This document shows positions 12,732 to 62,853 of a DNA stretch of 64,000 nucleotides, piece by piece. The DNA is taken from contig AE017150.2 in NCBI GenBank assembly GCA_000002445.1, positions 96,001 to 160,000 on the forward strand, given 5' to 3'. The notes beneath the pieces were generated by a model that was not told the DNA's origin, ran no database searches, and saw only the letters and a program-made list of their open reading frames with translations. This DNA is from Trypanosoma brucei. Its lineage: Eukaryota. Both the position numbers and the translations under genes were made by a program. Numbering within the stretch: the stretch's first letter is position 1; each line of letters begins with the position of its first letter.

Positions 12732-15269
12732 TCACCCTCCTTGCGCTCCCGCTTGCTCGTTGCGTGGCTGCGGCGCAGGCTCCATGGCCAGAAGTGGAGC
12801 ATCCCGATACCAACATTCATCTCTATATGCTCGCATTAGCTGCCCCTGCATTTCTTCCCTTAACGTTACTTGGTATTGAGCCATGTTTCTCCACATATCT
12901 GCCGCTTCGGCGGGGTCGTCGCCATCACAAAGTTGCCTGATGGTTATCGTGCCACCGTTAACCGAATTAATGTATATCATCTCCCAAACCATGTCGCGGG
13001 AAAACGCACCCCAATCAGAAAAATATCTTGCCATGTTTTCTCGGAACTTCTGCACCTTATCCGTAGTGGTGGGGTGCCTGTCCGACTTGGTTACTTGTAA
13101 AAGCACAGCTATATTTGGAGTGGTCGGTGGCGCTGCTCCGTCAGGGGCTCTCCTGAGCCGCCCCTCAACGAAAAAAAAGCCATCCACCACGGGTTCATTG
13201 CCTGTGGCAGGGCGGTAGAGAACCATGTATTCACAATTATCAATTGGTCGCTGGTGGGCCGCAGGTAAGGCCTTCTGCCCAGTGAGTTTCAACTGCTGAG
13301 GAGCCATGTCGTTCAGTATGCTTCGACGGTCAGCTATTTCTCCGCCTCGTCGCAGGTATTTCAAGTTGTCTGCGATAACTTTAAAAACTCGAGGAAAAAG
13401 AAGCGAAAGCAACGCCCTTGATTCAAACACGTTGGCTGCGGCACTCTCGTCTGACATCGTAACTTGACGGATAGCCATTTTCTCCACATCAATGGCAAGC
13501 AGTTTGAAAAATATAGCATTCCCAATGCAAACCGAAAGTGGCCGGCAGCGGTATTCATCGACGCTCTCTCCGGCATCTCGCACACGGACGATTTTCACTA
13601 ACCTGTGCGTTACCTTATCATTTCGCCAATCGGCAATTTTCCCCATTATGTCCTCGTAGTGACTTTTGTTGTCACCATTGATGGACGTTATCATCTTTTT
13701 TGCCTGAGACACACGTTTTGTGTACCCCGCGCTGTTGTAAACGCAACGAGGCACTGGCCCAACCACATTAATACGGCTCTTTATTGTTTCCCACTCATTT
13801 TTAAGTTCTTCTACAATCCTCGCCTGAGCTTCTTCATCAAGTGCCGCATAGCCTGATGCTACAGACAGCTTAGTCCATGCCACAAATGCCTTCATGTCAC
13901 GCACATCATCACAGTTTATAATAATTCCTACGTCTCTCTTGTCTTTTGACCAGTGATGAAAATGGGCCTCATCCGGAGAAGTGAGGAGAGTTACACCCCA
14001 AGCGTGAACCGGCAGACCATCGGGTGGCGTCTGCGCATTCTTGCATATGTCAACAATGATGTGCCCTTTTTTTTTCTTGAATACTAACGCAGCTATGACC
14101 CTAACAGCAGCTTTCACGTCTTCATATTGCTCAACCTTCCCCCCTTCTCCGGGTTTCTTGTTATATATTAAATAGGCTATTTTACCCACGAAATATGCAA
14201 CAACATCAAGCATTCCATCATTGAAGTGAAGCAATGAATGAAGCAAAAATGATCCAACACCATATGATTTACCAATACCAGGTGTACCAATAACAATATG
14301 TCTCGGTGTTATCTCAGCTTTTTCCACCCACCTTCCTTGCAGCCCTCGTTGGATTATATACCACACGCGCATAATTTCACGACGGATATATACATGCTTA
14401 AAATTTTCCAAGCATATCTCAGCGTCATCCAATGCAAACCCGTTGTATGGCCAACCCTTCTCCGAAGTGAGAACAAAAATCTCCAAACCATCAGGCCTCT
14501 CCTCAATCTCTGCATCAACATTCGCAGGGTCAGGAGTTATATCCACCTCCGCTTCGGTCCATATGCACTGTGGTTTTCCATCAAACACTTTCATGCCAAG
14601 TGGCTCTTCATTATAACCCGACATTACATAACTCCATTTCGCATTATATATGGATTCATACACTCCTTCAAGTTCGACAGCACCACCAGCTGTTTGGGCA
14701 GCTCGCTTTTCCGCTCTCTTGGCGACCTCCAGTGCTCCATCCAACCTTCCCCTCGCCATGGGACCAACAAATTCTCTTATTTCCCCTCTTCCCTTCTCCT
14801 CCCACTGACTGAGGTAGTAAATTTCTTTTTCGTCAAGGTACCTTGCTTTCCGCTTCATTTCAGAGAATTGGTTATATAATTCTTTATATTCCTCAAACTG
14901 ATAAAGCCGCCGTATCCTTCCTAGAATCCCGGCATCCAAAATATAATCCTCCGGGCTCTGGACAAACACATCCATGGCCACATTCTCTGTGTCATACGTG
15001 TTAAAAAACTTTTTCAGCAAAAAGTCATGCAGTGTCATATCCCTCAAACCCTCATAGCGTTGCAGCAATACATCTTCAATAGAACTGTTCATTGTCCAAT
15101 TGGGCCCCTCTTCAGTTCTCTGCCGTATTTGTGGAGGCTGAGCAGCAGCAGCAGCAGGAGGCGGTACATTTTCATCCCGTGGCCTCCTCATGGCTGCTTC
15201 AATATTATCTGCCACTTGTTGATTTTCATTATTTCCTTGTGGAGCTGCGGGACTATTTGCTCTTGACAT
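12732..15269 (-). CDS. RHS: Retrotransposon hot spot (RHS) protein, apparently full length (845 aa), P-loop GTPGIGKS
   Basis: Long ORF collinear with RHS #1, with identical N- and C-terminal blocks and a mosaic-divergent central region. There is no RIME at the hot spot. Confidence 0.88.
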   Translation of the reverse strand: MSRANSPAAPQGNNENQQVADNIEAAMRRPRDENVPPPAAAAAQPPQIRQRTEEGPNWTMNSSIEDVLLQRYEGLRDMTLHDFLLKKFFNTYDTENVAMDVFVQSPEDYILDAGILGRIRRLYQFEEYKELYNQFSEMKRKARYLDEKEIYYLSQWEEKGRGEIREFVGPMARGRLDGALEVAKRAEKRAAQTAGGAVELEGVYESIYNAKWSYVMSGYNEEPLGMKVFDGKPQCIWTEAEVDITPDPANVDAEIEERPDGLEIFVLTSEKGWPYNGFALDDAEICLENFKHVYIRREIMRVWYIIQRGLQGRWVEKAEITPRHIVIGTPGIGKSYGVGSFLLHSLLHFNDGMLDVVAYFVGKIAYLIYNKKPGEGGKVEQYEDVKAAVRVIAALVFKKKKGHIIVDICKNAQTPPDGLPVHAWGVTLLTSPDEAHFHHWSKDKRDVGIIINCDDVRDMKAFVAWTKLSVASGYAALDEEAQARIVEELKNEWETIKSRINVVGPVPRCVYNSAGYTKRVSQAKKMITSINGDNKSHYEDIMGKIADWRNDKVTHRLVKIVRVRDAGESVDEYRCRPLSVCIGNAIFFKLLAIDVEKMAIRQVTMSDESAAANVFESRALLSLLFPRVFKVIADNLKYLRRGGEIADRRSILNDMAPQQLKLTGQKALPAAHQRPIDNCEYMVLYRPATGNEPVVDGFFFVEGRLRRAPDGAAPPTTPNIAVLLQVTKSDRHPTTTDKVQKFRENMARYFSDWGAFSRDMVWEMIYINSVNGGTITIRQLCDGDDPAEAADMWRNMAQYQVTLREEMQGQLMRAYRDECWYRDAPLLAMEPAPQPRNEQAGAQGG

Positions 15270-24200: not shown

Positions 24201-24244
24201 ACAAGATAACTTTCTTGATGAATTTCATTCATGATCGCACGCGT

Positions 24245-26599: not shown

Positions 26600-26679
<80 letters not shown>

Positions 26680-43500: not shown

Positions 43501-46166
43501 AGTTGTACTGCGATGCTTCACTTTACCATATGTGTAACATCGTGTCTCGTTGGTTTGTAAAAATTCAAAAAGAACACATCAGGTGATATTCTTCTGTTCT
43601 TACTTCGTACATTCACATCTCTTCCCGTCAGTTCGGAAACTCCCACTCAAACTCACCACTCTGTGAAGATTTGTAATTTCCGTTATGGATGGACGTACTC
43701 AAGTGGACATGTTTGGCACTTCAAAACTAAGTTTTTTAAACTTACACCTTCCTTCTTTCATAGAGCTTCAGTGCGAGAGTAAAAGAATAGTTGAGTATTA
43801 TGAGAAAACATAAGCCCAAATATTCTCGATGCAAGTTTTCAATAAAAGCAAACGCATTGAGATGGTTTAGTGAACACATGCAGTATAATCCCTAGCAAAG
43901 GTATTATTCACACCCAATAAACAACTCAAACAAATAACACCAGCATACATATCGCAGACACATAAGTTGCACCTTCACAAACAAATGATGACTGCTGTGA
44001 CTCATCATGTGTAAAATATTATGAGAACAAAAACATAAATGTCCTTGATCTTCCATAAATGTATAGCACAATATTATTTTGCATTATCATCGGAAAAATA
44101 TTTTTTTTATATTGATATATATATTCAGCTAAAAGTCAAGAGTGAGCTCTGGCCTTGTAGAACTGTAAATGCGTGCATGTTCTGTTATTATTGTTTCCCA
44201 TTGTAAAATGAAGATACGTGCAGGTGTGGAGAAACGACTCCATTAATGCTTATGATGCACCAAATAATTCTCTCGTAAAGAAAGGAGAGAACAAATGCTC
44301 AGTACATGCGTCCCTATTTGTATCTTTAAATTAAGGTTCTCTTGAGTGGAGTAAAAGAAGAAAAGGCAAGAAGTATATGATGTGAGTGATAATACATAAT
44401 GAAATGACCCAACAAGAGGGAAAGGAAGTTACATGCCTTCACTACAGTCATACAAATAAAGCCAGACCCTTTACACTCGTTTCACAGTGTTCTGTCGCAT
44501 CGCTCTGTATAAACAAATTACTAATAGGAAATGGAAATGTAAGAAGAGAGTAAAAAAGTATCAAGTAGCTTGAGGATTATCGACACTCAGCTACGTGGAA
44601 TGATACGCATCGCAAATTTGTGTTTGAAATGATCACCATCCTAATGAACTTACTCGTATGTTACTTAATCCTGGGAAATACTTCTCTGTGCGCTCAAGTT
44701 ACCTGACAACTTTCCTTCCACACCCTATGCATTGTTACCACCTCCATTGTTAACTCCGTTGTTCCTGTCATATTCCTCAAGTTTTTCTTTGCATTCGACG
44801 TATAGTGCAATAATGCGCTCATTAAGTGAGACGGAAAATTGACGCACTTCCCTTTTCCAAAATCTTTCCTCACGTTTGCTTTGTTCATCCGTGGCTGTCC
44901 TGCTACAACACTGTGGCTTTGTAATTCTTTCGTCGTCAACCCTTTGAACATATATTATTTCCCATACCATATCATTAGAAAAATTGTCCCAGCGTCTAAA
45001 GTAACTTTGCAAACACCTTTTCATCTTAAATAACCCACCGGTGCTGCAGGGATGACTACCAGAAATTGTGTACTGCAGTCCCACAAAAGTCTTCGGGTTC
45101 TCAACAAAAAAGAACGCATCAACAACTGGGAAACTCCTTGATTGCGGCTTGTACAATTTCATGTATTCAATTTCAGCTCCAGCTACAATTGGAACATCCT
45201 CAGGAACCTCAATCGAAGGACCAATGAGTCTTGGTTCTTGCAGCACCTGCAGCACACTTCGTGGAATTTGATCCTCAGAAAGTGAGAGGCCCTGTAACTC
45301 CCTTGCCAACTCAATTAGTGCATCCTCATGTGACAATGCTTCAATGCCACTGTTCTCAAACATGTAGGCAGCGAGGGCGCGGTTAGACAACATGCCAGAA
45401 ATTAAAGCATATTTTTTTGTCCGCCAAGGTCTCAGAAAGTCTAAAATAGCTTGTCCCGTGTAAGATGAAAGCGGTCTGCAGCGATACGCATCACAAAGGG
45501 GGTCACCATCAACCACACGGACAGCCCTCACTAACTTGTGTGATACCTCATCTGTTTGCCACATACCTGCGTTTTGGAAAATTTTAGCGTAATCATTCAT
45601 ATCATCATCTCTCATTTTGCCAATGACCTCTCGAATTAGTTCCCGCTGCCTTTTATACCAAAATGAATCAACGATATGACGAAGCAGTGGACCAACGATA
45701 CGAATGCGGGCTTGAATTTCTTGCCATTCTCTTTCAATTTTCTCCTTCGCATCTGAAGGACTCCAACCGTAAGCAAGAGCAATTTTCCCCCACCTCGATA
45801 TGTGTATGGCTTCCAAATCCTTCAATGTGTCACAGTTTATGTAAATATGTGTAGCGCCGTTTTGCTTGGACCATTCATGGAATTGTCTAACGTTTGGAGA
45901 ACTCAAAGCAATACCGGAAAAATCACCAGGTGGTTTCACTGGAGCATGATGGTCCTTGTCCACGTCGAATATAAGGTATCCCTTAATATCCTCACCGCCA
46001 CTCGATTCTCCGATTATTTGCTTAACAGCTGTGAATGCACTCTTATAATTACTGTAAAACGTAACATATCCTGCTCGATCGCCTTTGGGTTTACGAAACA
46101 CGTACGCCTCGCCCTCCACAACGTATATGATAATCTGAAGCTGACTCGCTTCATAATGCAGTAGTT

Positions 46167-46178
46167 TGTATAACAGTA
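46167..46178. repeat. 12-bp target-site duplication TGTATAACAGTA (minus strand TACTGTTATACA), copy 1 of 4
   Basis: The identical 12-mer occurs at 46167..46178, 46683..46694, 47203..47214 and 47717..47728, immediately flanking each RIME. Confidence 0.85.
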
Positions 46179-46682
46179 TTTTTTTTTTTTTAGAATTTTC
46201 TTCGTGCCTTCGTGAGAGTTTCTCCCAACTGGCGCGGCCATCAGCCATCACCGTAGAGCCCCGAGATGCTATCGGTCTGGCGACTGTGGCAGAGTCTCCC
46301 TTTTTCATTCATCCTAACACACTCTCTATAATTTTTGTTGTATTTCCGCATATGAACGGAATACAGCAGATGGGGCGAGAACCCTCCCACCCTGGACTCT
46401 CCCAAAGATGCCAATTTGCAATCCTTTTTTGGAGGTCCACATCACCGGACAGCAGCATCTTAGCGCGGATGATACTGCTGATGGCACGCTGGCACGTGCC
46501 CAGGGACCGACAAATGAAAAACGGTGTCCCAGCAAGACGCTGCTGATCCCTGTGCTGTATGATGCCGTAGCCGGAGCACAGCAGTGTTCCCCATGAAAGG
46601 AACGCTGCTGGCTCTTGGCTTCCCCCGATGATACGGGGTACTGGACCCTGGCACAACATTGAGGTGGCCGGCATCGCCAGGG
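46179..46682 (-). mobile_element. RIME (non-autonomous ingi-related retroposon), copy a, with a 13-nt poly(A) tail
   Basis: The minus strand reads CCCTGGCGATGCCGGCCACCTCAATGTTGTGCCAGGGTCCAGTACCCCGTATCATCGGGGGAAGCCAAGAGCCAG... ending in poly(A). This matches the canonical RIME/ingi 5' end, the length is ~504 bp, and the copy is flanked by the 12-bp direct repeat. Confidence 0.85.
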
Positions 46683-46694
46683 TGTATAACAGTA
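46683..46694. repeat. 12-bp TSD, copy 2 of 4
   Basis: As above. Confidence 0.85.
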
Positions 46695-47202
46695 TTTTTT
46701 TTTTTTTAGAATTTTCTTCGTGCCTTCGTGAGAGTTTCCCCCCACTGGCGCGGCCATCAGCCATCACCGTAGAGCCCTGAGATGCTATCGGTCTGGCGAC
46801 TGTGGCAGAGTCTCCCTTTTTCATTCATCCTAACACACCCTCTATAATTTTTGTTGTATTTCCGCATATGAACGGAATACAGCAGATGGGGCGAGAAGCC
46901 TCCCACCCTGGACTCTCCAAAAGATGCCAATTGGCAATCCTTTTTTTTTCGGAGGTCCACATCACCGGACAGCAGCATCTTAGTGCGGATGATACTGCTG
47001 ATGGCACGCTGGCACGTGCCCAGGGACCGACAAATGAAAAACGGTGTCCCAGCAAGACGCTGCTGATCCCTGTGCTGTATGATGCCGTAGCCGGAGCACA
47101 GCAGTGTTCCCCATGAAAGGAACGCTGCTGGCTCTTGGCTTCCCCCGATGATACGGGGTACTGGACCCTGGCACCACGTTGAGGTGGCCGGCATCGCCAG
47201 GG
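46695..47202 (-). mobile_element. RIME copy b, 13-nt poly(A)
   Basis: Near-identical to copy a; same 5' end and poly(A); flanked by the 12-bp direct repeat. Confidence 0.85.
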
Positions 47203-47214
47203 TGTATAACAGTA
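47203..47214. repeat. 12-bp TSD, copy 3 of 4
   Basis: As above. Confidence 0.85.
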
Positions 47215-47716
47215 TTTTTTTTTTTAGAATTTTCTTCGTGCCTTCGTGAGAGTTTCTCCCAACTGGCGCGGCCATCAGCCATCACCGTAGAGCCCTGAGA
47301 TGCTATCGGTCTGGCGACTGTGGCAGAGTCTCCCTTTTTCACTCATCCTAACACACTCTCTATAATTTTTGTTGTATTTCCGCATATGAACGGAATACAG
47401 CAGATGGGGCGAGAACCCTCCCACCCTGGACTCTCCCAAAGATGCCAATTTGCAATCCTTTTTTGGAGGTCCACATCACCGGACAGCAGCATCTTAGCGC
47501 GGATGATACTGCTGATGGCACGCTGGCACGTGCCCAGGGACCGACAAATGAAAAACGGTGTCCCAGCAAGACGCTGCTGATCCCTGTGCTGTATGATGCC
47601 GTAGCCGGAGCACAGCAGTGTTCCCCATGAAAGGAACTCTGCTGGCTCTTGGCTTCCCCCGATGATACGGGGTACTGGACCCTGGCACCACGTTGAGGTG
47701 GCCGGCATCGCCAGGG
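47215..47716 (-). mobile_element. RIME copy c, 11-nt poly(A)
   Basis: Near-identical to copies a and b. It abuts RHS N-part codons ...LLLY through the 12-bp repeat. Confidence 0.85.
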
Positions 47717-47728
47717 TGTATAACAGTA
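47717..47728. repeat. 12-bp TSD, copy 4 of 4
   Basis: As above. Confidence 0.85.
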
Positions 47729-48773
47729 GGGATCCCACGGAAAACGATTTACCAATACCGGGTGTACCAATAAGAACATGAAACATCGGGTTGACAGTCA
47801 CTTCACCCATAAGCCACTGGTTAAGCCGTTCCTCAACCTTATGCCACACCCTCAGTGTTTCCCTACGGATATAAACATCACTATTAAAAACGTACCCCAC
47901 TCCTCTCTTATGATTAATATCATAATCTTTTGGGTTCGCTTTACACGACGTGTATGGCCAACCCATTTGAGATGTAAGCACAGCAATCTCCAAGTTACCG
48001 TCACGGGGAAGTGGTTTATACATTGTTTCCGGAACGTGACTGACATCAACTTCCTCCTTCGTCCACATGCGCGGCGGTCTTCCATCAAACACTTTCATTC
48101 CGAGTGGCTCTTCCCTGTGACCCGACTCCACATAACCCCACGTCGCATTGTATATGGATTCATATACTCCTCTCAGTTCGACAGCACCACCAGCTGTTTG
48201 GGTGGCTCGTTCCCTTGCTTCTTTGGCGGCCGCCAACGCTCCATCCAACATTCCCCTCGCCACGGGACCAACAAATTCCCTTATTTCCCCTCTTCCCTTC
48301 TCCTCCCACTGCCGGAGGTAGTAAATTTCCTTCTCAGACAGATACCTTGCTTTCCGCTTCATTTCAGAGAATTGGTCATATAATTCTTTATATTCCTCAA
48401 ACTCATCTGTGCCTTGTATATCCTCAAGAATCTCAGCATCAACAATATATCTTCTGGGATTCTTAACAAACACATCCATGGCTACATTCCGTGTGTCATA
48501 CGTGTTTAAAAACTTTTTCAGCAAAAAGTCATGCAGCGTCATATTACGCAAACCCGCATAATCTTCCAGCAGCACATTCCTCACCTTACTGTTCATTGTC
48601 CAATAGGGTCCCCCTTCAGTTCTCTGCCGTATTTGTGGAGGCTGAGCAGCAGCAGCAGCAGGAGGCGGTACATTTTCATCCCGTGGCCTCCTCACGGCTG
48701 CTCCAAAATTACCTGCTACTTGTTGGTTTGCATTATTTCTTCGTCGACCTCCACCTCTTCGACGTCTTGACAT

Positions 48774-51730
48774 AACTCTCTTAATATTATTAACTTAACT
48801 TCCCTTCCTTTTCTTTTTTCTCTGAAATTATAAATAACTGAAGTAAAATAATAGATGAGGAAAAAAAATAGCGGATGAACAGTGTAACATAATATCAAAT
48901 GTAATAGAGCAATATAATGTTTACTCACTATCATTTGTATGATATCATAATGCATTTGGTATTGAGAGGAACAATTTCAAAATATAGCAGCTGTAAATAA
49001 ATTATTTCCCTTGCTTCATTATCATACGCTAAATATAATGAACTTCATACATCATTTCTTTTTAAACCATGAATAATATGGAAACAAAAAATATTACTGC
49101 CTCATACACCTGCATCAACACTTCGTATATATAATCAATATTTAAAGAGAGTCAAATTCTATCAATTAAAATCAAGTAAAACAATAAACAAAAATATATA
49201 TGGATATTAATGAAGCGAAGAAAAAGAGTATCGGCACAACACATAGATATACACACACATGAATACGCACTACACAACTGCTTCTTTATATATCCTCCCC
49301 ATTTTTACAATTCATAATATTCACTTGCATTGAATAAACTCATTGAAATATAAATCACTTATCCCGTCCCCCGTGTAATCACTTACTTCCAAAGGAGAAT
49401 ATTAAATAATGTCTGTAGGACAGGTAAAAAAAAACTGATAGTCTTTTTGCATCAGATAACCAGAGAGTATTTCCTGTTTACTTTGATTATAAGCAAAAAC
49501 ATCATTTTGCCTTCAGTAGAAATAAAATTGAATTACTTGCCTCCTCATTGCTCACAACTATCAACAACTAATTCATCCCCACACATTCACGTGTATCTGA
49601 TGTGCCATCGTTGTTTGATTCATTCACACATCTTCCATGATAGCGATGATACAACATATTGTAAATAATTGGAATAAAATTAATACAATTAATTGAGGAA
49701 ACCGTAAAAGATTATCATAACATATCTTTTATTTTCCCTCCTTTCATTTACACAAATTAAATATGTAATGAGACAATTCCCTTTCAGTACGTGTCCACAC
49801 TTATTGTATCATCATTGTAAGTTATTTTTTGCTCACATACACAAAGCTATTGGAATAACAAAAAAATAAAACAACACATTTAAACAACTTAAAAATATAT
49901 AACAAATAAAGGTAATAAAGAGAATGAGAGTGAACTGACAGATAATAAAATGAAACACGTCTCGCATTTTCCTTATAAATATTCAATAGTTGGCGGATTA
50001 CAAATAAAAACAATTACACATTATAGAAAGGAAGGGATATAATTACATTATACACCTGCATGTGGATATGTAACAGCGAGTCATAGTAGAAATAAATTGC
50101 CTAAACACAATAGTTATGGAAGATAACATAATTCAAAATATCAATAATATTATTCTATCAACATTCCCTTCCTTCTCCATTAAGTTTTCAATGGTTTCAA
50201 ATAATAATTCACATAATCTCATACATATGTTACGATGGGTATTGCATGCAGTACAATTTAAAGGAAGTGCAACTCATATAACATTTTCAAAAAAAAGGTA
50301 TTGAATGACTGTTTGCTACCATCAATTACATTTCCAATGCCTGATTACACTTTTATATGCATGAAGGAAGTTACTGATCATAACTTTGACATGCTCGAGA
50401 ATCCATAACACAAAGCAGCAGCTGCATGCAATAAAAAATATAAATATAAATAACATCCGAATTCATTTACTGACAGATGAGTGCAATCCATTCATCCAAA
50501 CTTCATAGCTGCAAACATAAACTCGTTGTTGCCAATAGAAAATAATCGCGCATAAATATTGAGTATCTGAAAATGATAGCAACGGGTTTCCATTTTCGAA
50601 ATATATACATAAACTACATGAGGTATATGAAGCCATATTGGTAAAGTGTCACTACGCATGTTGCAATTTACTATCAAAAGTGTCTGCCTTATTTTATTTC
50701 TTGTGTTACTGTAACTCATGAGTATCATTCATTATTCTTTACAATACAACTGTAAGTCATTTTGCATTTTTACATATTTCCTTATTCTCTCATACTGGAA
50801 GTATTCCACATATGAGATTCCTCAATATCGTTCACAAAATAAAAATAATTTTATTTACTTCTGCATTCAGTTTCTCGTGTAGCAGTGTGTACACTAATCA
50901 TCCATAAAGTTTTTAATTTGCCAAATACATCATTACGAAACTATTTTCCACACATACACATACACAAACAAACCGTTGGGACAATATCTTTGAGGTATTT
51001 CCTTCACTATATTTGCAGTTTAGCAGTGATTAAAATACACTTTTTGTATAATTCAACACATGGTGGAATTGCAAAGAAATGTGATGGTACTTATAATCCA
51101 TAAGTTCCCAATTTTCCTCACATGATCTCTTTTCATGCCTTTATATCCTTATATAATTCACAGAGAATTACTGCAATTTCTTTCATATGCTTTCAGGATT
51201 CCATAAGTCACAATACAAATAATATATATTTACAAATTTGCACATAATATTGCTTAACATATAAATTATCACAAACCTATGATATTACACTCCTCCTAAG
51301 AATAATAGAATCAAATCATTTCTATTTTGCATCATTACATGAAGCTTTGGAAAAGGAAAAAAAAGAATCAAACAAAAGGTAATGTAAACAACACAGTTTC
51401 ATAATACAGATTATAACTTGTTTGTGAATTTCAGATGCAAACACAAAATGTTCAAACAGGGAAACAGTAAAGGATGTTACTGGTGATGTAAGCACAAATT
51501 AACCAAAAATAGAAACATAAATAAAATTGAAACTTATAAAAACACAAATATATATGACACAAATATTTACCACATATTATAATTCGCCACCCTCACACTT
51601 GAATTACAAAGAGTACATAACACACATATGTGGTAAAACTAATACAACTCGAATATACATATGTGCCATCTTCTTAACATAATCATTCCAATATTTACTC
51701 AGTATGTATGTCTGTGTGTGTGTAGAAATG
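48774..51730. repeat. Conserved AT-rich RHS upstream region, copy 3
   Basis: Aligns with 4587..7556 and 15270..18250. Like copy 2 (and unlike copy 1) it continues into ...cgacaatcgcttgactcggaatgcgg. Confidence 0.8.
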
Positions 51731-54700
51731 ATGAAATGTAATCGACAATCGCTTGACTCGGAATGCGGTATTAACATGTCTCAGATGTTAAGCGTTCTTG
51801 TTCTACAAGGGAAGTCATTCGCCTTTTTTTCCTTTTTGCGCAAACAAAAAATAAAAAGAAGAATTCAAGGGTTGTAGCGGATAACTAGCTTTTTGAATCG
51901 TAGCAATATATTATGAAGCATGTACCACAGTCTACTCAGTATTTTTTTTTATTTTTTGATTTCATTAACTTTCATACATGTTTATAAATGATACTTTTTG
52001 TGAAATTTATAACAAGAAACTAACTCGTATTTTCAGTCACTAGCTTCACAGTTCTGAATTTTCGCAATGATGCCGCCGCAAAATATCATTCTTGCTTCTT
52101 ATTTTATTGAAGAGTTACTCTCGCAGAAGAAAGCAGGATGAAAATACTCAAGACCACACCGACAGGGGCCAGACATTCCTCAAAAAAGAACGAACAAAGA
52201 AGTTAACCACACAACCCTTCTTACAAATGAGCGTCTGTCAATGTGCAAGAAAAAACAAAGGCTTCGACTGCATGCAACACTAGAAACGATATCAGCGGCT
52301 TCAATCCCACAGTTAAAGCCACTTGACGAAACACTCAGCATACGAAACCTTTGCAAAGCAATGTATTGGTTATTTAAAGAAAAAGAAAAAAATGTATTCC
52401 TTCACGTGCCGTTTCAACAAACTGCTAGCCGAGAACTAAGAGTATCAACACACACGCACGTGATATCCACGCGTCGAATATTTGCTGCCCAGCTGACTCC
52501 AAACTCACAAAGAGGAAACAACACGTAACCACTTACAGCCCAGCTGCTAGTGTCCTTTAAGTGCATACAAATACACAACAGCAATCATTGTCACCCCACT
52601 AATTTTAGGCATCATTTAATGCACATTTAACAAACGTGATGCCCGACTCCAAATGTGAAAGGCACTCGTCACGCACCCGCCCCGCCCGCCTCCCCACAAA
52701 TTCCACAGGATGGTGGAGGCAAGGCAGCAAAGGAGCGACGCGGCGCTGTTAAAATAGAGCAGCTGCGCATCAGTTGCATTGAGTTTGTGGAATGCGGAGA
52801 AACCACCAGTTGAGCTTCGAGAGTGAGGGATGCTCCCACAGAGTCGTGGCGGCAGAAGGTGATGAAGACGTCACGGATCTTTTTTTTTCTTTTGCTGCAA
52901 CCTCCCGAAATGCGTTGAAACGCCAAGCACCACCGCCACCCCCAGAGCAAAAACGTTGGGGAGAAAAAGCGGAACAATGTGTGGGTTGTGGCGCTGAAAC
53001 CGCAATTACCAACTGGCAAGGTGGATGGACCGCGACATGTGAGCGAGCAAGGGGAGACATCGCTGTTTGTGGAATGTAGGGAGATGTAAGAAAAGAGACC
53101 ACTAAATATGATAACGATGTTAGAGCAACGAATATGAACGGCGTACAATTCCGTTTAGAAACACTGTCTGGAATTTCTGTCTGTAAAAACAACAACTGGC
53201 AGCACCGACGAATTCGTAACAGAAGGTTGCGGGATGCCAGCCAAAAAAAAAAAACCATCAATAGGCCACAACCACACCGAATCAGAAAGTCCACATAAAA
53301 GTAACCAAATACACGCAGCTCAAACGCTCAAATGTTGGATACGCGGCAGGTGACACGACGGAAGGAATATTATCCAGCGCTTGGAAGCATGTCACCACCG
53401 CAACGACTCCTCAGAAACTGGACAGCTTCAAGTGTGGAGTGGCGGCTTGCACATGAACGTAGTGAGTGTCAGAAAGGAGGGGGGAAAGGCATAGCGGAAG
53501 GAACGGCGAAGCAAAAAAGGCAGGGAGGCTGTGCCAAGACTCCCGAGCAGACATCTGCTAAAACCTACGGCACATGACATGTATGGTATGGCCATTGCAG
53601 CGCAGGAGGAACTGTTACAACGAATCGGACATGACTGTTATGGGCCCGTCACTGCCTTCAGAGACTTTTCCAAACGAAAGGAAAGAGCGCAATGCGACAG
53701 AGTGATGCTGACGTGTGCAGAAGTCTCGAAGCATTGTGTCAGCGAGGTCTGTGGTGACTAAGAGTCAGAGATGGGCACATGGTTAGAAGGGTGGTGGATC
53801 CTGCGACGAGTTGAAATTAGGGTGCCTGTACTTTATTTCTCATATACTCGCGTGCTCCGTATACAAAATATAAATGAGAAATGGATCTCACAAACACGCC
53901 AGCAAAGTGGATCTGTTCCTTTGCAATGTCCAGACAATTCGCACTAAGACTCTTAAAGCTATTGGACCGAAGGAACCTCACGACCGTGTGCAGCTGTCAA
54001 ACGTGCGAAAATGGAGAGCTGGCCGGCATCTCACCCTCCACTTGGCAGCTGCTCTCAACTGGAATATCGGGGATTATGGATGGTGTGTAAAGCTCACCAT
54101 TTTGTGGATTCTTCTGAATAGCAATGGAGTCTGAAGGTTAACCCAAAGAGTTAAAACGTTGAACAGAGCTGGTGACCTACGTGGTCTTTTTTTTGTGTAA
54201 AAAGTGCCCGACTGCCTTACTGCATCCCTTCGCGTGCATGCAAACTGAGCACAACGCAATGTCTCCTTTATTATTTGAAGCATGAAAGCTCATGGATTAT
54301 AGCCATGGGACAGAAGGCCTTGATTACGTTAGACTGATAGGACCGCTGTGTATTTTTCGTTGTCTATGTTGGGATGGCCATTTGATAGTAGCATCTGCTA
54401 GTGTACAATTATTTTGATGGATTCGGCACATTACAGTGATTTCTGTTGGGAGTTCCTCTTCCCCCTCACTCTGAGTAGATGTGGGGTAACTGGTTTCTTT
54501 TCTGACGCTAACATGGTTTGCCAGCTCTGTTTGGGAATGTTACGGTATCATCACGCACAGTTTCGCAATTTGTCCGTAAAGCTGCTTTGAATCCATGCTG
54601 CGGTTGTCACGAATCAGAAAAATTATAACGGAGATGGGTCTGCAAAAAGGCATTGTGAGTTAGCGACAATACTACGTATCAAACAATGTCACATCATGAC

Positions 54701-57700
54701 GATTACAGTGCTGCTTCACAACTTCAGCATAGGGGAATGGCGGAATCGTTTCAAATGCGGAACAAATAATGAGAGTCCAAATCTCCATTCTTAAATTCCC
54801 GTGGCTACATGAACTGTATGCAGGTGAAACATTTATCAAGGAAACTGTATTGACAAGACTTAATCCAAGGAGAGATTAGGAATGCAAATACTTCATGCTT
54901 TCGTTGAACAGCCGTACATCAGACCTGTCAACTCCATTAAGTGACTGAGGAGTTAACCTATTTTAAGGTGTATGGAAATGGAGACATGGTTTGAGCAACC
55001 AACGGCCAGTATTCAGTACAGTTGGCTTATGTGAAACCAAAACGTCTGCATCCGTGTATGTTCAACCTGACAGCTTCGCTTAGCCTTTTGTTAAGCTGTA
55101 CGACACTCTTCCAGGTGTATGCAACAAAATACAGTTATGCGCGTGATCTTGCAAGTGAGGAAGGTAGTGTACAGGAAGCATGTGAAACAGGAAAAATATA
55201 TATTGAGCTGCTCTGAATCCATTTGATGCAGAATGTAAGAGCGTTAACCCGGCTGATATTTTGATATGAACCAACACACTAAATAATGATTTAAGAAGCA
55301 GGAAAAAGTTGATCCAAACTGCACTTAGCCTGGAGTTGTTTCCAATGCTCCTAGATAATAATGTGTGTGATGCGTATGGGGGTTCATTACTTTTTGAGGG
55401 AGCATGAAAAAGGATGAGGAGCAGAAACTGTTCGGAAGATGACGATTTTTACGATTCTTATTATTAGGTCGACATCCTTTTTGTGATGGTTTAATGGTTT
55501 AGTATCTATGAGTGCTTTACACTCGCTTTATTTGAACACAAACTCATGCATGCGCGAAAATTGTGAAGCTGCTTACTCACAGATATCAATTAGAGGCATC
55601 AAGCTTTTGGCTCATGGTAGTCATTTTCATATGAAGTTAGCATTCCGAAACAGCTACCTGGGAAAGGAAATTGAAGGCCCACCACCCTTGCCAACATGCA
55701 TTTTATCTGTATTTGTGGTCAAAATGGACGTCACATGTAGCCGCACCATTTCATTGACCGCTGCGTAATATACTCCCTTACTTATACTCATTAATACCCA
55801 CTGACGCCTCTCTTTTCTCTCTTTGTGTGCGGGAAGCACTGCCGTCATACAGAGAGAATCGCAACATTGGATAAGAGAATGGATCTCGAGTGTGTTAGAA
55901 GGCAGTCAGAGACGATAGCAGTTGTGACGGTTGTGGTGTTCCGGGTGAATTTGGATTTGATTAATGATGAACCGCTTCGTGTAGCGGTAAGAGACCCTGA
56001 TGAAACTGCATATAAAGAAACTAGAGGAAGGGCTCACAATGGTCATAAACACGTCTTATGGATGTGATAATGTATGGAATGAAAGTGTGGAAACAAGGTT
56101 GAGAGAAATCATGTGTGAGACTGTATTTGCCGATTTTTACAAAATGGGGATGAATTCTCTCCGTGTATGAATGCTGCGTTGGAGAGTGCAAATGATATGT
56201 TACATGTACAAGCTGGAGAGGATGGCGACTGACGTCTGAAATTGGAATGGATGTAAAAGACATAAAGCATTGTACCGATGCGAAAGCAAAGGGCGCATGC
56301 ATGTCAACGATAGGAAACTAGTTTAGACTCTTTTTATTCGGATATGCTGTGGCGGAAGCAGTGTGCATGCAGAAACCCCGAGCATCCGACAACGGGATAT
56401 AGAAGCGTTAACGATAGTGTCCAACTCATGGAAATCCGGCAGACATCAACTCCTCTCAATTATAAGTTACTTCGAGCTTATCAATTTCTTCCTTATGAGG
56501 TCCCATTTCCTCCACACACTTTTGCATCACAACAATGGAGAGAAGGAGAAAATGTTGAAGCGCATTATGCACTGTATCAAACTTGTTTGTGTATGTATTT
56601 GACCTCTCCTGATATGAGTCTAACCGTTACCAACATGTTACCGACTCTGGGAATCCATGAGCATGATGTACATAAAATATCACGAACTTTGTGCACGTCC
56701 TGGCGTTCCACTTAGTGAACGTCATCAAACTCAATGAGCAGAACCACATGGAAGGAGGAAATTGTGTATTTGTATGCATACATGTGTGTCAGTATGTTGG
56801 TTTGTAACACTGTGGTGAGAGTAAATGGAAGTATCTTTTAATATGGAGAATACCGCACATAAACACACCTCAGTGTATCACCAAGAAATAATGGCGGAAA
56901 CGGGTCAGACAAGGTTGCAGAGATATCAGTCTCAAATATATACATATGACACTAGCCATTCTCTGGTCACACAACAAGAAAGAGCAAGGTGTAGCGTTGA
57001 TTGGATGTAACGGCAGGATGAATCATTTCCTTTAAAGGACAAATGAGCAGATGCGCGTGTGCAGTCCAAACCGGCTAACTGTGAATTGCATTTCATTGAG
57101 AAATATTTTTTGTTAATTCAGCAGGCAGAACGCCTTCTTTTTTCACTCTCACTTTACACAGACATGACGGTCGGTAGAGGTTAGTACCAGCTGATGCATT
57201 TACAACCGTGCACAGTAATAAATGTTAACTGATTGCTCCTGTCGTGTGACTCTCGAGACGTTACCAGGTGACCATGGAATTATCTTAAAGATGTTTGGAT
57301 AGAAGGGCGTCTAATAGGTGCCGGTCTTCTAATACAGCGAAAAGCTTGTAATGCATGCGTATGTTTGGTAAGATGCGAGGAGGCCATTGATTGTACTGTT
57401 GTAGTTAGCTGTTGCGCGCTGCATTGACTGGGTGTGGTTGCAGCACATCTCAGTAATGAAATGCAGAAACCTCTCATCCATCGCAGTGATCGACAAATGT
57501 GTCTTAATTAAGTTGAATGGCAGGTGGTGTCTATGCATATGTTGGGTTGCTCGACTCCCAGAAACCTGGATTAAAGCAACAAAAGGTGTTGTCGTTTGTT
57601 TTTATCCATGCATTTGTTCAAACTATCTGTGCATCAATGCGTACCATCATTGTCTTTCAGTATAACCAACCTTTCTATACCATCAATAACAACTCTCTTC

Positions 57701-57760
57701 CATCCATCATTGCTAAACAAGATAACTTTCTTGATGAATTTCATTCATGATCGCACGCGT

Positions 57761-60114
57761 ATGCCGGCTGACGAAGCACAGCAAGCTCCACCACCTCCCC
57801 AATTACCTTTACGACGCCAACACTTTTCCTGTTGCTGTTAGTGTTACTTCAACTTTATCAAATATGTGTTCTTGTTAACGCAGATGATGGTGGGAAAGTT
57901 ACAGTGAAGGCAATATCTCTGTTATACAGTCGAAAATGGGACGTAAAAGTTATCAATGCCGTGAATGCCGATTTCAACGCCTCCCTGGTTGCTCGGAACT
58001 GGACGGTGGCACCCGGAGTGAATGTTGAAGTTGCCCGCTCCCCCTCATACGTCATCGATTCGGTCCAGTTTCTGAATGACTACCCGAAGGCACTAAATGG
58101 CGATGACGCGAACAAGCTGTGCAATACATTAAAAGGGAACCAACTTGTTGGCTTCGGTTCCATGGCTGAGTATCAACAGGGCATGAGGGATGTCTGCCGC
58201 ATCTTTACTTCCTGCTCCTTGAGGCCACTGGCGAACTTATTACCCCAGTACGTTATGCGATGAGTCACTTACGTGTGCTAAAGCAGGGTTTCATGTATCT
58301 TGATGGGCTCCCGGGAGGTAGTGAAGCATATAATCATGCAGTGGATTTCATATAGCGCATGGGGTACAGTTTCTGTTGTGTTTTCACGGGGGAAGACAAA
58401 GCGGGTGGACAAGGTGGATCACCTGAGGAATTCGACGCTGCATGGAATTAGTTTGCTGGGGGAAATCCACAGGCTGTGATTATGTTTGCCGCCATGAAGC
58501 CTGATGCCAAAAAAAATCTCGTGAGGTTGGTGTCTGATCCGCGTACGGAAGATACGTTCATGCCAACTCCGATCTTATTGCAGAAATCAATCGTGAGCAT
58601 CTGGAAGGAGACATTGGAAGAAGCGAATGTTCCGTTTGTTCCCCATCGTGTGATTCAGACGGGGTCAAATCCTCTCGCTGAGGAAGATTATATCGACGCG
58701 GTAAAACGCTTTCAGACTGAAATGAGGAACTATTTGACTGAATACAGGGAGTGGAGTGACTTCAATGATGCGGATCACTTTCTAAAGAGTGACGCGGATG
58801 GGGAGCTGACGATCAACGGCTAGATTACTGGAGAGGTGTTGGCGCGGGCACTGCGTACCCATGGCTGGATGAAAAATCGCACAGCCGTCATTGAGTCGCC
58901 GTTACGTGATTGATGGCATCGTGATCGGTGATTTTGGAGGTGAGTGCGATAGCTTTACCACTGCAAATGATGCCACTTGCCGCTGCAACCGTGGCAGGAA
59001 GAACGTCTACATGAGGGAGATTGCTGAAAATTACCGCCTGCAACCGCTTGCTGGCAGGCATATTATGACAACTTCCTTGCAGTGTTATATCGATCCCTCA
59101 TTCCTATAGACACCACTCACCGGCCTCACCGTTGATATGGAAGATCACGAAGAGCTTCTGAGAGGTTCCACACAGTTTGAAACTGGTGTGTCCACCACGA
59201 CCTCATCTGGGAAAGCTGGCGAGATGAACAGTTTCTTCCTTCAGAAGGTTGCCACAGATATGCAGAAGGTTTCCGACGAGCTCAACACATTGCGGCAGGA
59301 AAGGATAGTCACTGCCGTGTTTGGCATCGTAACAAAAGCGGTCTGCCAGGTCTGACATTCATTGACCCTATGGCACCAACCCCTCATCTGAACAGTTTCA
59401 GCAGGAATGTGATCCACTTGTCCCCAACAATGGAGCAGCAGCTATGCATGTTAGCGAGCTCCCTCTCCAGCATTCGTGCTGACTTCCACCAATTGCGTTG
59501 TAAGGGGCGGTGAGGCGTCCGCTTTCATTGATGCGCTAAGAAAGACACTGCTCACATTTGGCTTGAACCTCAGCTCTACCGTTGTATTAACTCCAGGGGA
59601 CTCTGTTGGAGAGTATCTTTCGAAAAGTGGTAGCACTTTTATCATTGGACTTGCTGTTGATGGCATTGTGGTAACTGAAGAGCATCTACGTATCCGCAAC
59701 AAGGTGCGCGTATTTGTCCAGTTCTCTGACATTGCGCTGCTGTAAAATGAGTTTGCGCAAGCCTTCGACAATAGCGATGGCACCAAGCACCTTTTGTTCG
59801 CAACAAGTTTGCTTTGCTACCCAGACATCAACACGACATCGTAGACTGTGCAACGGTTCCACGAGGCGGTACGTGAGGTGGAAAAGTGGACGCCGCTGTC
59901 GGTGCTGGGTTTCGCCACGGGTAGACTAATCCAAGAGAATCTGCAAAACATGGAAAGGGTAACGTCCGGCCTGCTGGTCGACCTTTTCTTCAACCAAACA
60001 GTAATCATCATTGATGGCATGCGTTATATGGGCCGTACAAACATTATGATTGCATAACCAACGGTGTTGTTACCGCTGATGACTGCGTGACAAACTTCGG
60101 TGCTACGGATATAA

Positions 60115-60148
<34 letters not shown>

Positions 60149-60661
60149 TCAATGGCACGTGCGCTACGGTCAGATGCACCGATACTACAGAATCCGATGT
60201 CGCCGTCGTTGATGTGCGCTGTCCCCAACGGTAATGCCCTCACCCCCGCACAAGTTGCTGGTGTGGTTGGTGACTCTTTATTCGTTGTGGCTCTTGCAAT
60301 ATGTCTAAGCTTACTTGCGTGATTCCCTCTCCGTGGCACCCGTGATGACGACAGCGCACCCAAGGAACCAACGAACCCCGTGACACTAATATTTACTGAC
60401 ATTGAGAGCGGCACTGCGTTGTGGGCTGCACACCCTGAGCTGATGCCTGATGCCGTTGCGACACATCACCGTCTGATTCGTTCACTGATTGGGAGGTATG
60501 GCTGCTACGAAGTCAAAACTGTTGGTGATTTGTTCACAATAGTGAGCAAGAGTCCCTTCGCTGCCGTACACCTCGCACAGAAACTACAGCTGTGTTTCTT
60601 GCATCATTCCTTCCGAAGGGGCTGCACAATTTCTGACAGCGCCGAATGGACAAATGCATAA
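57761..60661 (+). pseudogene. GRESAG4: Receptor-type adenylate cyclase (ESAG4/GRESAG4 family) pseudogene, copy B; more decayed than copy A
   Basis: The catalytic-domain fragment at 60380..60661 reads MTLIFTDIESGTALWAAHPELMPDAVATHHRLIRSLIGRYGCYEVKTVGDLFTIVSK... Upstream pieces lie at 57832..58263, 58476..58823, 58891..59109, 59476..59745 and 59848..60057. Relative to copy A there is an extra 1-bp deletion near the signal peptide (ccacctctccc vs ccacctcccc) and extra stops (for example gatgag to aattag near 58446). Confidence 0.8.
60118..60147. repeat. (TG)~15 microsatellite inside the adenylate cyclase pseudogene, copy B
   Basis: Seen directly. Confidence 0.9.
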
Positions 60662-62853
60662 TATTACGGAGCGCTGCTTACGCACGCAGCTTATATAATG
60701 TCACATGCGTTGTGATTTGTAGAGGGGAGTGGGCCACCAGAAATTGGGCCATTTAATGTCAATAAGTTTTTACCGCTTGTTGGAGCCGTAATTCCCCGCA
60801 CTTAACCTTTTCGAACCGAGGAGTTGGTAAAAGACGGCCAATCAACGGCATCGTCGACACCGTGGCCATCAGTACGGGATTTTACATACGGTAACGAAGC
60901 GTGGGCATATGTTTTTCTTTAAGCGTCATTTTTTTAAATATTTTTCTGTACATTGTTGCTGCCACTTCTATGAAGTATAGCCAGAATGTTAGAGTAGTAC
61001 ATTTGCGTGCAAAACGAAGATAATAATACTCCCTTTGTTTTTCTTTCCCTCTTGGGTTGTATGAAAAGAGGGGGCTCCTGTTTGTAGGATGACAAGAGCT
61101 GTTTTGTTTCTTTCCTCAAAAAAATTGCATGCTCCATAGTTGCTCCAATATTCCCATCCCTTCATTGGAAAATGACCCGTCGGCTCCGTCCATGTGAGTG
61201 AAGCGGTGTCCCTGATATTTGCCCTGATGCTTTTTCTTTTTTCCACCGTGGAACCTGCACTGCACTGCACTTGCGTTCCCTCATCCCCTCTTACAGTTAT
61301 CCGTTTCACTTCCCCTGTTGAGGAATGCGTATTTCCAACCGCGCGAGATATCAAACAGTAAATCTGTCGGACAAACAAAAGGCTAAGAAATTCGTCACAT
61401 AAACTTATGAGCTTTCACCACTGAGGCACGCACGCTCACCAACACCAACAAAGTCAAGCAAAAGGCGCTGCATATTAATACTCAATGGCGCCATAATGTT
61501 CCCTTTCGTGTTCCCTTTTCCCTCTTCCTTCCGTTGGGGTTACACAACACTTGTGGGAACCCGCTTCACTTCCTCCTTTTCCAATTATGAAGGTAACTGT
61601 GTTTTGTTTGCCACACCTCCGCTTGTTATTTCTCCAACTGGTTTCACTTTCAGAAGTCGCGTGTACACCACTTGTGGAGGAAATATTACATTAGGCAAAA
61701 CCAACTATGAAAAAAATGGCAATACATTCTAAAACATTCCCTCAACATTGCAGAACTCATGAAAGGAATCATGGTTACTGCCGCCAGGCTAAGGAAAGAC
61801 CAAAAGGCTTTTGAAATGTGTTTTCGCATTGAATGTACCATTGGTATTTCTTTAACATGCAAACACAACACAAATCACGGCATGCACAAACACGAGTGCC
61901 AAGCTTCTTATAGAGATATTTCAATACCTGAAAAAGGGACCGGGACGCAAAGTTTGGGAATGGAATTTCCCCGCCCGTAACGGTGATTATCTAAGACATT
62001 CAATCAACACATTTCCGCCTGTCCACAGTCAATGGGAAACCGTAGTGCCCATATGTCCCCCTAATTACTGTTGTCCCTTCAGTTTTCACAGTAGATGTTT
62101 CAATTGGTTTCTGCGGCCGAGGTAAATAAAGCGTATGTGTCATATCCGGGAGGTGTTTCCATGTGTCTTCGCTTTCCGTTTTGTCACTGCGTTTGGGCTC
62201 ACGCAATGACATTAATTGAAATTTCAGGCCACTACCATATATGGGTGGCTCGTGGAGAGAGTGAGGATTGGGATTATTCTAACAGCTTTGTGGTTGTGTG
62301 TGTCGTGCTTTTGGAAAATATTGCAGCCAATGAAAGGGAAGGCAAGTGCCACCTTACTTTCCATGCCGCGGCATCAATGCATAAGAATTATATGCTAGTT
62401 GCCCTGCGAGGGAAGGTCGTGAAGGCGAAGGTTAGCTTCCGGTTTAAGGAAATGTAGAGACTTCTTGATACTACTGTCAGAAACTACTGTTGCCGCGTGC
62501 TTCAGGCACTGGGTCAGTAATTCATAAATAAAACAACGAGAATAAAATTAATCCCTTGTGGCTGCTAAGCGTGCAAGCAACTGAGAATAATAAACAGTAT
62601 ATTTTTGCCACACTTTATTGATTTCTATATATATACAAAACAACCTCATTACATTTATCATTTCTTTTGTGCCCAAAGACTGCTGAATGAATGTTAGGAT
62701 CACTGACCATAACACATTTTGGCATGCACCTCAATTACTTCCTTATAACACTTCCCCCCCCCTCGTTTGATTCATCGCTTAGCTCTATTATTAAAAAAGA
62801 AAAAGCATTTCCTCAACACTCAGCACCTCAAGGAATCGGAAACGGGAACTACA

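What the first reader, a model, noticed from the sequence alone, without database searches (positions are those of the whole stretch)
46167..47728. Three head-to-tail RIMEs in one RHS hot spot, each bounded by the same 12-bp TSD
Four copies of TGTATAACAGTA (minus strand TACTGTTATACA) alternate with three ~505-bp RIMEs. Each RIME has its own 11-13 nt poly(A) and the canonical CCCTGGCGATGCC... 5' end. The RHS reading frame is preserved across the junctions (LLY|TLAMPATS...). The array could come from three independent insertions at one site. It could equally come from unequal crossing-over between the TSDs, or from gene conversion amplifying a [RIME+TSD] unit. RIME and ingi insertion at a conserved 12-mer inside RHS genes is established knowledge. 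A triple array with perfect TSDs is the cleanest structural signal in the window, and it gives a way to measure how fast such arrays turn over.
Basis: partly seen in the sequence, partly recalled or inferred. Interest (0 to 1): 0.6.

Follow-up and report, generated by a model that had tools for sequence, protein, structure and literature searches.

The report
Three tandem RIME retroposons splitting RHS1
Three copies of the short Trypanosoma brucei retroposon RIME sit head-to-tail at the known insertion hot spot of an RHS1 gene, each bounded by the same 12-bp duplication; the structure is real, but it is an already described kind of array, most likely built by repeated insertion into a target site that each insertion regenerates.

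Summary
Four exact TGTATAACAGTA 12-mers (46167, 46683, 47203, 47717) alternate with three complete minus-strand RIMEs of 504, 508 and 502 bp, with poly(A) tails of 13, 13 and 11. Removing the array plus one 12-mer restores an intact 832-aa RHS1 ORF. The window is almost certainly the T. b. brucei TREU927 reference, because a neighbouring 845-aa RHS ORF is 100% identical to a TREU927 protein. The three units are not copies of one unit. Polarised against three RIMEs and two ingi 3' ends from other T. brucei subspecies, the outer units U1 and U3 share five derived bases. The middle unit U2 has the ancestral state at all five and carries ingi-like states elsewhere, including a 4-bp indel. U2's 3' half is closer to a RIME at a paralogous locus in T. 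b. gambiense (2 of 234 sites differ) than to its own neighbours (7 of 234). This A-B-A order excludes simple amplification of one [RIME+TSD] unit and cannot arise from A-B by one unequal crossover. Only the 5'-most 12-mer keeps the upstream motif seen at other insertions. Serial target-primed insertion is the best explanation. Published work already describes TSD-separated tandem retroposons as frequent in T. brucei. Interest is low.

The parts
47729..48773 (-). N-terminal half of the interrupted RHS1 gene. It runs from the ATG at 48773 and ends five codons after the P-loop GTPGIGKS.
   Evidence: Pfam RHS_N (E=8.5e-56) and DUF7578. The ORF reads straight into U3. The best full-length relative of the reconstructed protein is RHS1 Q8T9M3 at 90% identity.
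47717..47728 (-). t1, the 5'-most copy of the 12-bp TSD (TACTGTTATACA on the minus strand). It is the only copy still preceded by the RHS upstream motif ...ttttccgtgggatccc.
   Evidence: The upstream 20-mer resembles those at independent RIME/ingi insertions in L001, L004 and L006.
47215..47716 (-). RIME U3 (502 bp, A11), A-type. It has two private substitutions.
47203..47214 (-). t2, an internal TSD copy preceded by the poly(A) tail of U3.
46695..47202 (-). RIME U2 (508 bp, A13), B-type. It has the ancestral state at all five U1/U3 marker sites. It is ingi-like at alignment columns 219, 259-262 (GAAA insertion) and 290.
   Evidence: Its 3' half differs from the DAL972 L003 RIME at 2 of 234 sites, and from U1 and U3 at 7 of 234 each.
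46683..46694 (-). t3, an internal TSD copy preceded by the poly(A) tail of U2.
46179..46682 (-). RIME U1 (504 bp, A13), A-type. It has three private substitutions.
46167..46178 (-). t4, the 3'-most TSD copy, followed by the RHS1 C-terminal half.
44725..46166 (-). C-terminal half of the interrupted RHS1 gene (RHSP P-loop domain), with the stop codon at 44725-44727.
   Evidence: Pfam RHSP, E=3.9e-102, profile positions 21-311 of 312. Joining 44725-46178 to 47729-48773 gives an uninterrupted 832-aa ORF.

Best explanation
The region is an RHS1 pseudogene of Trypanosoma brucei, almost certainly in the TREU927 reference sequence. Its coding sequence is split just after the P-loop by three full-length RIME retroposons. 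RIME is non-autonomous and is mobilised by the ingi-encoded endonuclease and reverse transcriptase through target-primed reverse transcription. Two nicks staggered by 12 bp duplicate the target. After one insertion, the complete target (upstream RHS motif plus 12-mer) survives at the 5' end of the element and can be cut again. Each further insertion at that 5'-most 12-mer adds a unit upstream and leaves exactly one 12-mer between units. On this model the array grew in the order U1, then U2, then U3. U2 came from a different source element than U1 and U3. What is shown: the anatomy, the identity of the elements and the host gene, the A-B-A lineage pattern, and that only t1 keeps the upstream motif. 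What is inferred: the order of arrival, and that U1 and U3 are separate retrotransposition events rather than a DNA-level duplicate pair.
For: Anatomy: there are four exact 12-mers and three complete units, each with its own poly(A) tail. Element identity: each unit equals an ingi 5' end (positions 1-247) joined to an ingi 3' end (positions 254-506), as seen against the L006 ingi whose two ends lie 5 kb apart. The units are 98% identical to solitary RIMEs in DAL972, which carry their own different 12-bp TSDs. Host: Pfam RHS_N and RHSP, a best hit to RHS1, and an intact 832-aa ORF once the array is removed. Lineages: five sites group U1 with U3 against U2 and the outgroups, and no site supports either other grouping. 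U2's 3' half is closer to a RIME at a paralogous locus in another subspecies than to its neighbours. The published RIME-LAMP primers also carry U2's state at columns 276 and 313 (PMC4358998). Target regeneration: only t1 keeps the T-run and G-rich upstream context seen at the L001, L004 and L006 insertions, while t2, t3 and t4 are preceded by poly(A). Literature: the TSD of Tbingi/TbRIME is fixed at 12 bp, and TSD-separated tandems are frequent in T. brucei and are attributed to independent insertions at one recognised target (PMC3820030). The conserved upstream motif is probably the endonuclease recognition site (PMC2323293). Parsimony (inference): one unequal crossover cannot turn A-B into A-B-A, so every recombination route needs at least as many events as three insertions.
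Against: U1 and U3 share five derived bases that none of the five outgroup 3' halves carries as a set. Only L004 shares one of them, at column 373. That is what a local DNA-level duplication or conversion would leave, and I could not test whether this haplotype exists elsewhere in the TREU927 genome. The private-substitution counts (U1 3, U2 1, U3 2) show no clear age gradient from the 3' to the 5' end, although the numbers are too small to be informative. The upstream-motif argument rests on four insertion sites and on a figure I could not see. The primary papers (Bringaud 2002, 2004) were not readable here.
Confidence: 0.6

Rival explanations
1. Mixed origin. There were two retrotransposition events, one A-type and one B-type, plus a DNA-level event that produced the U1/U3 sister pair. 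That event could be unequal exchange or microhomology-mediated duplication through the 12-mers, intra-array gene conversion, or recombination between RHS pseudogenes carrying related arrays. One variant is that U2 inserted into the middle 12-mer of a duplicated A-A dimer.
For: U1 and U3 share five derived bases absent as a set from three RIMEs, two ingi 3' ends and the LAMP reference at two of the sites. They differ from each other at only 5 positions. RHS pseudogenes are reported to recombine around the retroelement (PMC7563717). The DAL972 L003 pseudogene has unequal TSDs, TACTG... against TTCTG..., which fits such chimerism.
Against: A single one-unit-offset crossover of A-B gives A-(B/A chimera)-B, not A-B-A. 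Reaching A-B-A needs exchange through only 12 bp of homology plus a further deletion. Alternatively it needs insertion at an internal 12-mer that lacks the upstream motif. The poly(A) tails of U1 and U3 differ (13 against 11). Each route takes at least as many events as three insertions.
Confidence: 0.3
2. Pure amplification. A single RIME insertion was expanded to three copies by unequal crossing-over between TSDs or by conversion of a [RIME+TSD] unit, and all differences are mutations that arose afterwards.
For: The TSDs are identical, the units are 98-99% identical, and the spacing is regular.
Against: Seven of the eight positions at which U2 differs from both neighbours are shared with independent copies in other genomes: columns 219, 276, 290, 313, 373, 472 and 476. 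The extra bases at 259-262 are also shared. These are therefore lineage markers rather than new mutations. U2 has a single truly private base. U2 is closer to a RIME in DAL972 than to U1 or U3.
Confidence: 0.03
3. Assembly artefact. One or two real RIMEs were expanded to three by mis-assembly of repeat reads.
For: The region is repetitive and lies in an RHS cluster with large segmental duplications. No second assembly of this locus could be examined.
Against: The three units can be told apart: 5-10 substitutions, a 4-bp indel and different tail lengths. Each unit carries private bases. Reads spanning the junctions could therefore be placed uniquely. An artefactual expansion would normally produce identical units.
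Confidence: 0.03

Closest known systems
RIME/ingi insertions in RHS pseudogenes of T. brucei (Bringaud et al. 2002, as summarised in PMC7563717)
   Same: The host family is the same (RHS_N plus RHSP, subfamily RHS1). The insertion point is the same, five codons after the P-loop. The element reads in frame with the RHS N-terminal half. One or more retroelements lie between the two RHS halves.
   Different: Nothing differs in kind. This copy happens to hold three RIMEs and no ingi, and the host ORF is otherwise undamaged.
Tandem ingi-clade retroposons separated only by a 12-bp TSD (Tbingi/TbRIME, Tvingi/TvSIDER1, L1Tc/NARTc; PMC3820030, PMC5814959)
   Same: The units are head-to-tail with exactly one 12-bp TSD between them, and the same TSD flanks the array.
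   Different: [quoted passage not shown] This array contains only RIMEs, but from two source lineages arranged A-B-A.
Solitary RIME in a paralogous RHS1 pseudogene of T. b. gambiense DAL972 (locus L003, FN554974.1)
   Same: The hot spot is the same, the 33 bp on each side are nearly identical, the 5' TSD is the same TACTGTTATACA, and the RIME is 98% identical to U2.
   Different: It has one RIME instead of three. Its 3' TSD is TTCTGTTATACA. The surrounding RHS DNA is only 80-91% identical to the window's, so it is a paralogue and not the orthologous locus.

Membership tests
RIME (non-autonomous ingi-clade retroposon of T. brucei) | About 500 bp made of the first ~250 bp and last ~250 bp of ingi | tested here: met
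   U2 positions 1-247 match the 5' end of the L006 ingi and positions 254-506 match its 3' end, about 5 kb downstream. The units are 502-508 bp long.
RIME (non-autonomous ingi-clade retroposon of T. brucei) | Conserved 5' terminus (the start of the 79-bp signature, CCCTGGCG...) and a 3' poly(A) tail | tested here: met
   All three units start with CCCTGGCGATGCCGGCCACC, as do the DAL972 and T. b. equiperdum copies. The tails are A13, A13 and A11.
RIME (non-autonomous ingi-clade retroposon of T. brucei) | Flanked by a 12-bp target-site duplication | tested here: met
   Four exact 12-mers. The solitary RIMEs in L001 and L004 also have 12-bp TSDs, of other sequence. PMC3820030 states that 12 bp is fixed for Tbingi/TbRIME.
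RIME (non-autonomous ingi-clade retroposon of T. brucei) | No coding capacity for endonuclease or reverse transcriptase | tested here: met
   Only short ORFs of at most 172 aa lie inside the units. These are the ingi ORF N-terminus (MPATSTWCQGP...) cut short.
RIME (non-autonomous ingi-clade retroposon of T. brucei) | 5' Pr77 element acting as internal promoter and HDV-like ribozyme | tested here: inconclusive
   Rfam gave no match above chance in 45900-48000, and Rfam may hold no model for this ribozyme. The function is reported in the literature only (PMC4035085).
RHS (retrotransposon hot spot) gene family, subfamily RHS1 | RHS_N and RHSP P-loop domains, with a C-terminal region that defines the subfamily | tested here: met
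   Pfam RHS_N 8.5e-56, DUF7578 5.1e-18 and RHSP 3.9e-102. The best hit is named RHS1, at 90% identity over 99% of the reconstructed protein.
RHS (retrotransposon hot spot) gene family, subfamily RHS1 | Retroelement inserted at the conserved position just downstream of the ATP/GTP-binding motif | tested here: met
   The sequence reads GTPGIGKS, then FSVGS, then LLLY, which is the 12-mer. The L003 pseudogene is interrupted at the same position. The site is described in PMC7563717.
TSD-separated tandem retroposon arrays formed by repeated insertion | Adjacent complete units separated by exactly one TSD and nothing else | tested here: met
TSD-separated tandem retroposon arrays formed by repeated insertion | Units derive from independent RNA molecules or source elements | tested here: inconclusive
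   Met for U2 against U1/U3: the lineage markers are shared with copies elsewhere. Unresolved for U1 against U3, which share five derived bases.
TSD-separated tandem retroposon arrays formed by repeated insertion | Copy number at the locus varies between strains, with intermediate alleles | not testable with these tools
   TREU927 and other T. b. brucei assemblies were not retrievable. No orthologous locus was found in the DAL972 or T. b. equiperdum loci fetched.

The most novel reading that the evidence does not exclude
The outer units U1 and U3 are sisters because a RIME already resident in the array served as the source of the next insertion at its own hot spot. That would mean local, cis-biased re-insertion of a transcript from the RHS pseudogene, so arrays at RHS hot spots would partly seed themselves. 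If true, RHS pseudogenes would act as nurseries for RIME rather than as passive sinks.
Probability: 0.1. Interest if true: 0.5.

Novelty: already known. Interest (0 to 1): 0.18.

Why it matters
It matters little beyond annotation. The locus is a clean textbook case of a site-specific non-LTR retroposon re-using a target that its own insertion regenerates, in a gene family named for that property. It lies in what is almost certainly the long-published TREU927 reference. The one new detail is the A-B-A lineage pattern. That pattern rules out simple amplification and sets up a cheap genome-wide test of whether sister copies in such arrays come from a common master element or from local events.

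Tried and rejected
Tandem Repeats Finder found nothing, because its longest period is 500 bp and the units are 514-520 bp; this is not evidence against the array. Five exact-protein look-ups aimed at the TREU927 locus or its alleles returned nothing. That was true even though the window's 845-aa ORF is 100% identical to TREU927 protein P0022, so TREU927 is evidently not in that index. I therefore made no strain comparison of this locus. A homology search with the antisense ORF covering all five U1/U3 marker sites gave no hit, so I could not sample more 3' halves that way. The junction-spanning ORF search found RIME- and ingi-derived ORFs but no annotated protein crossing another RIME-TSD-RIME junction. 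Loci L005 and L007 contained no RIME. L003 was considered as a possible orthologue and rejected, because its flanks are only 80-91% identical. Rfam gave only chance-level miRNA hits. The primary papers (Bringaud 2002 and the 2003 chromosome II paper) are not held, so I could not check whether this exact array was already drawn there. The one-mismatch 12-mer at 10310-10321 lies in a non-RHS context and is taken as chance. Template switching within a single TPRT event was rejected, because it would join poly(A) directly to the next 5' end with no 12-mer between them.

Full report
OBSERVATION. TGTATAACAGTA occurs exactly four times on the + strand, at 46167, 46683, 47203 and 47717. Allowing one mismatch, the whole 64-kb window has five matches against 0.35 expected, and none of 100 shuffles reached five. 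Three units lie between the 12-mers. Read on the minus strand, each begins CCCTGGCGATGCCGGCC and ends in poly(A): U1 46179-46682 (504 bp, A13), U2 46695-47202 (508 bp, A13) and U3 47215-47716 (502 bp, A11). The window holds no other copy of either end of the element. Tandem Repeats Finder reported nothing, but only because its longest period is 500 bp and the units are 514-520 bp.

WHAT IT IS. A protein search with an ORF that reads through a unit junction returned only Trypanosoma proteins. Among them are ingi N-termini that start MPATSTWCQGP.... Each unit equals an ingi 5' end (positions 1-247) joined to an ingi 3' end (positions 254-506). The same query matches the two ends of one ingi in T. 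b. equiperdum locus L006, which lie 5 kb apart. The units are about 98% identical to solitary RIMEs in T. b. gambiense DAL972. Those RIMEs carry their own, different 12-bp duplications: TGAAAAAAGATT in L001 and TTTAATTATTTA in L004. The units are therefore complete RIMEs.

The flanks are the two halves of an RHS gene on the minus strand. Region 47729-48773 carries Pfam RHS_N and DUF7578, and 44725-46166 carries the RHSP P-loop domain. Deleting the array and one 12-mer gives an uninterrupted 832-aa ORF. Its best relative is a protein named RHS1, at 90% identity over 99% of its length. The break falls five codons after the P-loop (GTPGIGKS-FSVGS-LLLY). This is the hot spot described for the family (PMC7563717). 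A neighbouring 845-aa RHS ORF in the window (12732..15269) is 100% identical to a T. b. brucei TREU927 protein on a 1,193,948-bp contig. The window is therefore almost certainly part of the published TREU927 reference.

READING FRAME. The RHS frame continues into U3, in the frame of the ingi ORF start, and then stops about 125 codons later (ORF 47343..48773). An ORF that starts inside the RIME 3' half reads through an A13 tail and the 12-mer, either into the next unit or into the RHS C-terminal half (ORFs 46309..46824 and 44725..46308). U3's A11 tail shifts the frame (ORF 46980..47342). The array therefore does disrupt the gene.

ORIGIN OF THE ARRAY. The raw alignment suggested that U2 was the odd unit, with seven private substitutions and a 4-bp insertion. 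I polarised these sites with three DAL972 RIMEs and two ingi 3' ends. That reversed the picture. At five sites (alignment columns 276, 313, 373, 472, 476) U1 and U3 share a derived base. U2 and the outgroups carry the ancestral base, except that L004 shares the state at column 373. At columns 219, 259-262 and 290, U2 carries states also found in L004 or in ingi. Five sites group U1 with U3, and no site supports either other grouping. The truly private changes number three in U1, one in U2 and two in U3.

In the 3' half, U2 differs from the RIME in DAL972 locus L003 at 2 of 234 sites. It differs from each of its own neighbours at 7 of 234. L003 is a paralogue of the window's gene and not its orthologue, because its RHS flanks are only 80-91% identical to the window's. 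The published RIME-LAMP primers, which were designed on a reference RIME, also show U2's state at columns 276 and 313 (PMC4358998).

The array is thus A-B-A in lineage. Amplification of one [RIME+TSD] unit is excluded for the array as a whole. At least two independent source molecules contributed.

MECHANISM. Published work establishes three points. Tbingi and TbRIME always make a 12-bp TSD, and tandem retroposons separated only by the TSD have 'frequently been observed' in T. brucei, where they are explained as independent insertions at one recognised target (PMC3820030). A conserved motif upstream of ingi/RIME is probably the endonuclease recognition site (PMC2323293). In the sequences available here, the 20 bp upstream of the TSD at four independent insertions share a T-run followed by a G-rich stretch ending in C or G.

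Within the array only the 5'-most 12-mer (t1, 47717-47728) keeps that context. The other three are preceded by poly(A). The inference is that each insertion regenerates a complete target only at its 5' side. New units are then added upstream, one 12-mer apart, and the order of arrival was U1, U2, U3. By simple enumeration, a one-unit-offset crossover of an A-B array gives A-(chimera)-B and not A-B-A. Recombination routes to A-B-A need exchange through only 12 bp of homology plus a further deletion. The alternative is insertion into a poly(A)-preceded internal 12-mer. Neither route needs fewer events than three insertions.

I put serial insertion at about 0.6. A mixed origin, in which the U1/U3 pair arose by a DNA-level event, is at about 0.3. 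It remains open because the five shared derived bases were not seen together in any outgroup, and I could not search the TREU927 genome for that haplotype. An assembly artefact is unlikely, because the three units can be told apart and each has private bases.

COMPARISON WITH WHAT IS KNOWN, AND NOVELTY. The elements meet every testable defining feature of RIME, and the host meets those of an RHS1 gene. The arrangement matches the TSD-separated tandem retroposons already described for the ingi clade. PMC7563717 states that RHS pseudogenes carry 'one or more' retroelements between the two RHS halves. The kind of structure is already known, and the sequence is almost certainly from the reference genome on which those descriptions were based. 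I could not read the primary papers to check whether this exact array is figured there. The only increment here is the A-B-A lineage pattern.

LIMITS. No other assembly of this locus could be retrieved, so copy-number variation between strains was not tested. The outgroup sample is small: five 3' halves plus primer sequences. The upstream-motif argument rests on four insertion sites. The ribozyme and promoter function of the RIME 5' end was not testable, since Rfam has no matching family.

VERDICT. It is an already known kind of structure and of low interest.

Noticed in passing
window 1-64000 (for example 14534-30000 against 48038-63500, and 1-7450 against 10636-18165): Large segmental duplications with spacings of about 10.7 kb and 33.5 kb, at 90-97% identity, carry the three RHS copies and their surroundings. 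The upstream and N-terminal parts of the three RHS genes are homologous, while the C-terminal halves differ. This fits the reported shuffling of RHS halves.
   Followed up: partly
window 44725-46308 (minus strand): Because U1's tail is A13, an ATG inside the RIME 3' half opens a 527-aa ORF (MKKGDSATVARP...KKKKILLYKLLHY...). It reads in frame through poly(A) and the 12-mer into the whole RHS1 C-terminal half. This could in principle express an N-terminally truncated RHS protein, but no identical product is on record.
   Followed up: partly
L003 11028-11565 (T. b. gambiense DAL972, FN554974.1): A paralogous RHS1 pseudogene holds a single RIME whose two TSD copies differ: 5' TACTGTTATACA and 3' TTCTGTTATACA. 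The intact RHS1 in L007 has TTCTGTTATACA preceded by T rather than C. This suggests the two halves of the L003 pseudogene come from different RHS copies joined by recombination at the retroelement.
   Followed up: partly
L002 10001-10319 (DAL972, FN554972.1): A degenerate ingi/RIME 5' half, 92% identical over 240 bp and starting CTCTGGCCACGC, sits right after an RHS-like P-loop context (GIGKLLSIGSLLLHT|...). It looks like an older insertion at the same hot spot that has since decayed. A second 99-aa gene call lies 1063 bp downstream.
   Followed up: no
window 2073-4586 and 12732-15269 (minus strand): The two intact RHS genes in the window have a strongly diverged sequence at the hot-spot position: TTTTGCTT(C/T)ATT in place of TACTGTTATACA. 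The intact RHS1 in DAL972 L007 keeps a near-perfect site and is nevertheless empty. Whether divergence of the site protects genes from insertion was not examined.
   Followed up: no
window 29379-32711 (+ strand): A 1110-aa ORF encodes a leucine-rich-repeat protein with many Pfam LRR families (LRR_4, E=8.6e-46). Similar LRR genes flank the RHS-like fragment in DAL972 locus L002.
   Followed up: no
L006 9981-9992 and 15255-15266 (T. b. equiperdum): The full-length ingi in L006 has no matching 12-bp duplication: 5' TTGTTGTTTCCA against 3' TACAGCAGTTAT. This suggests recombination between ingi copies after insertion.
   Followed up: no
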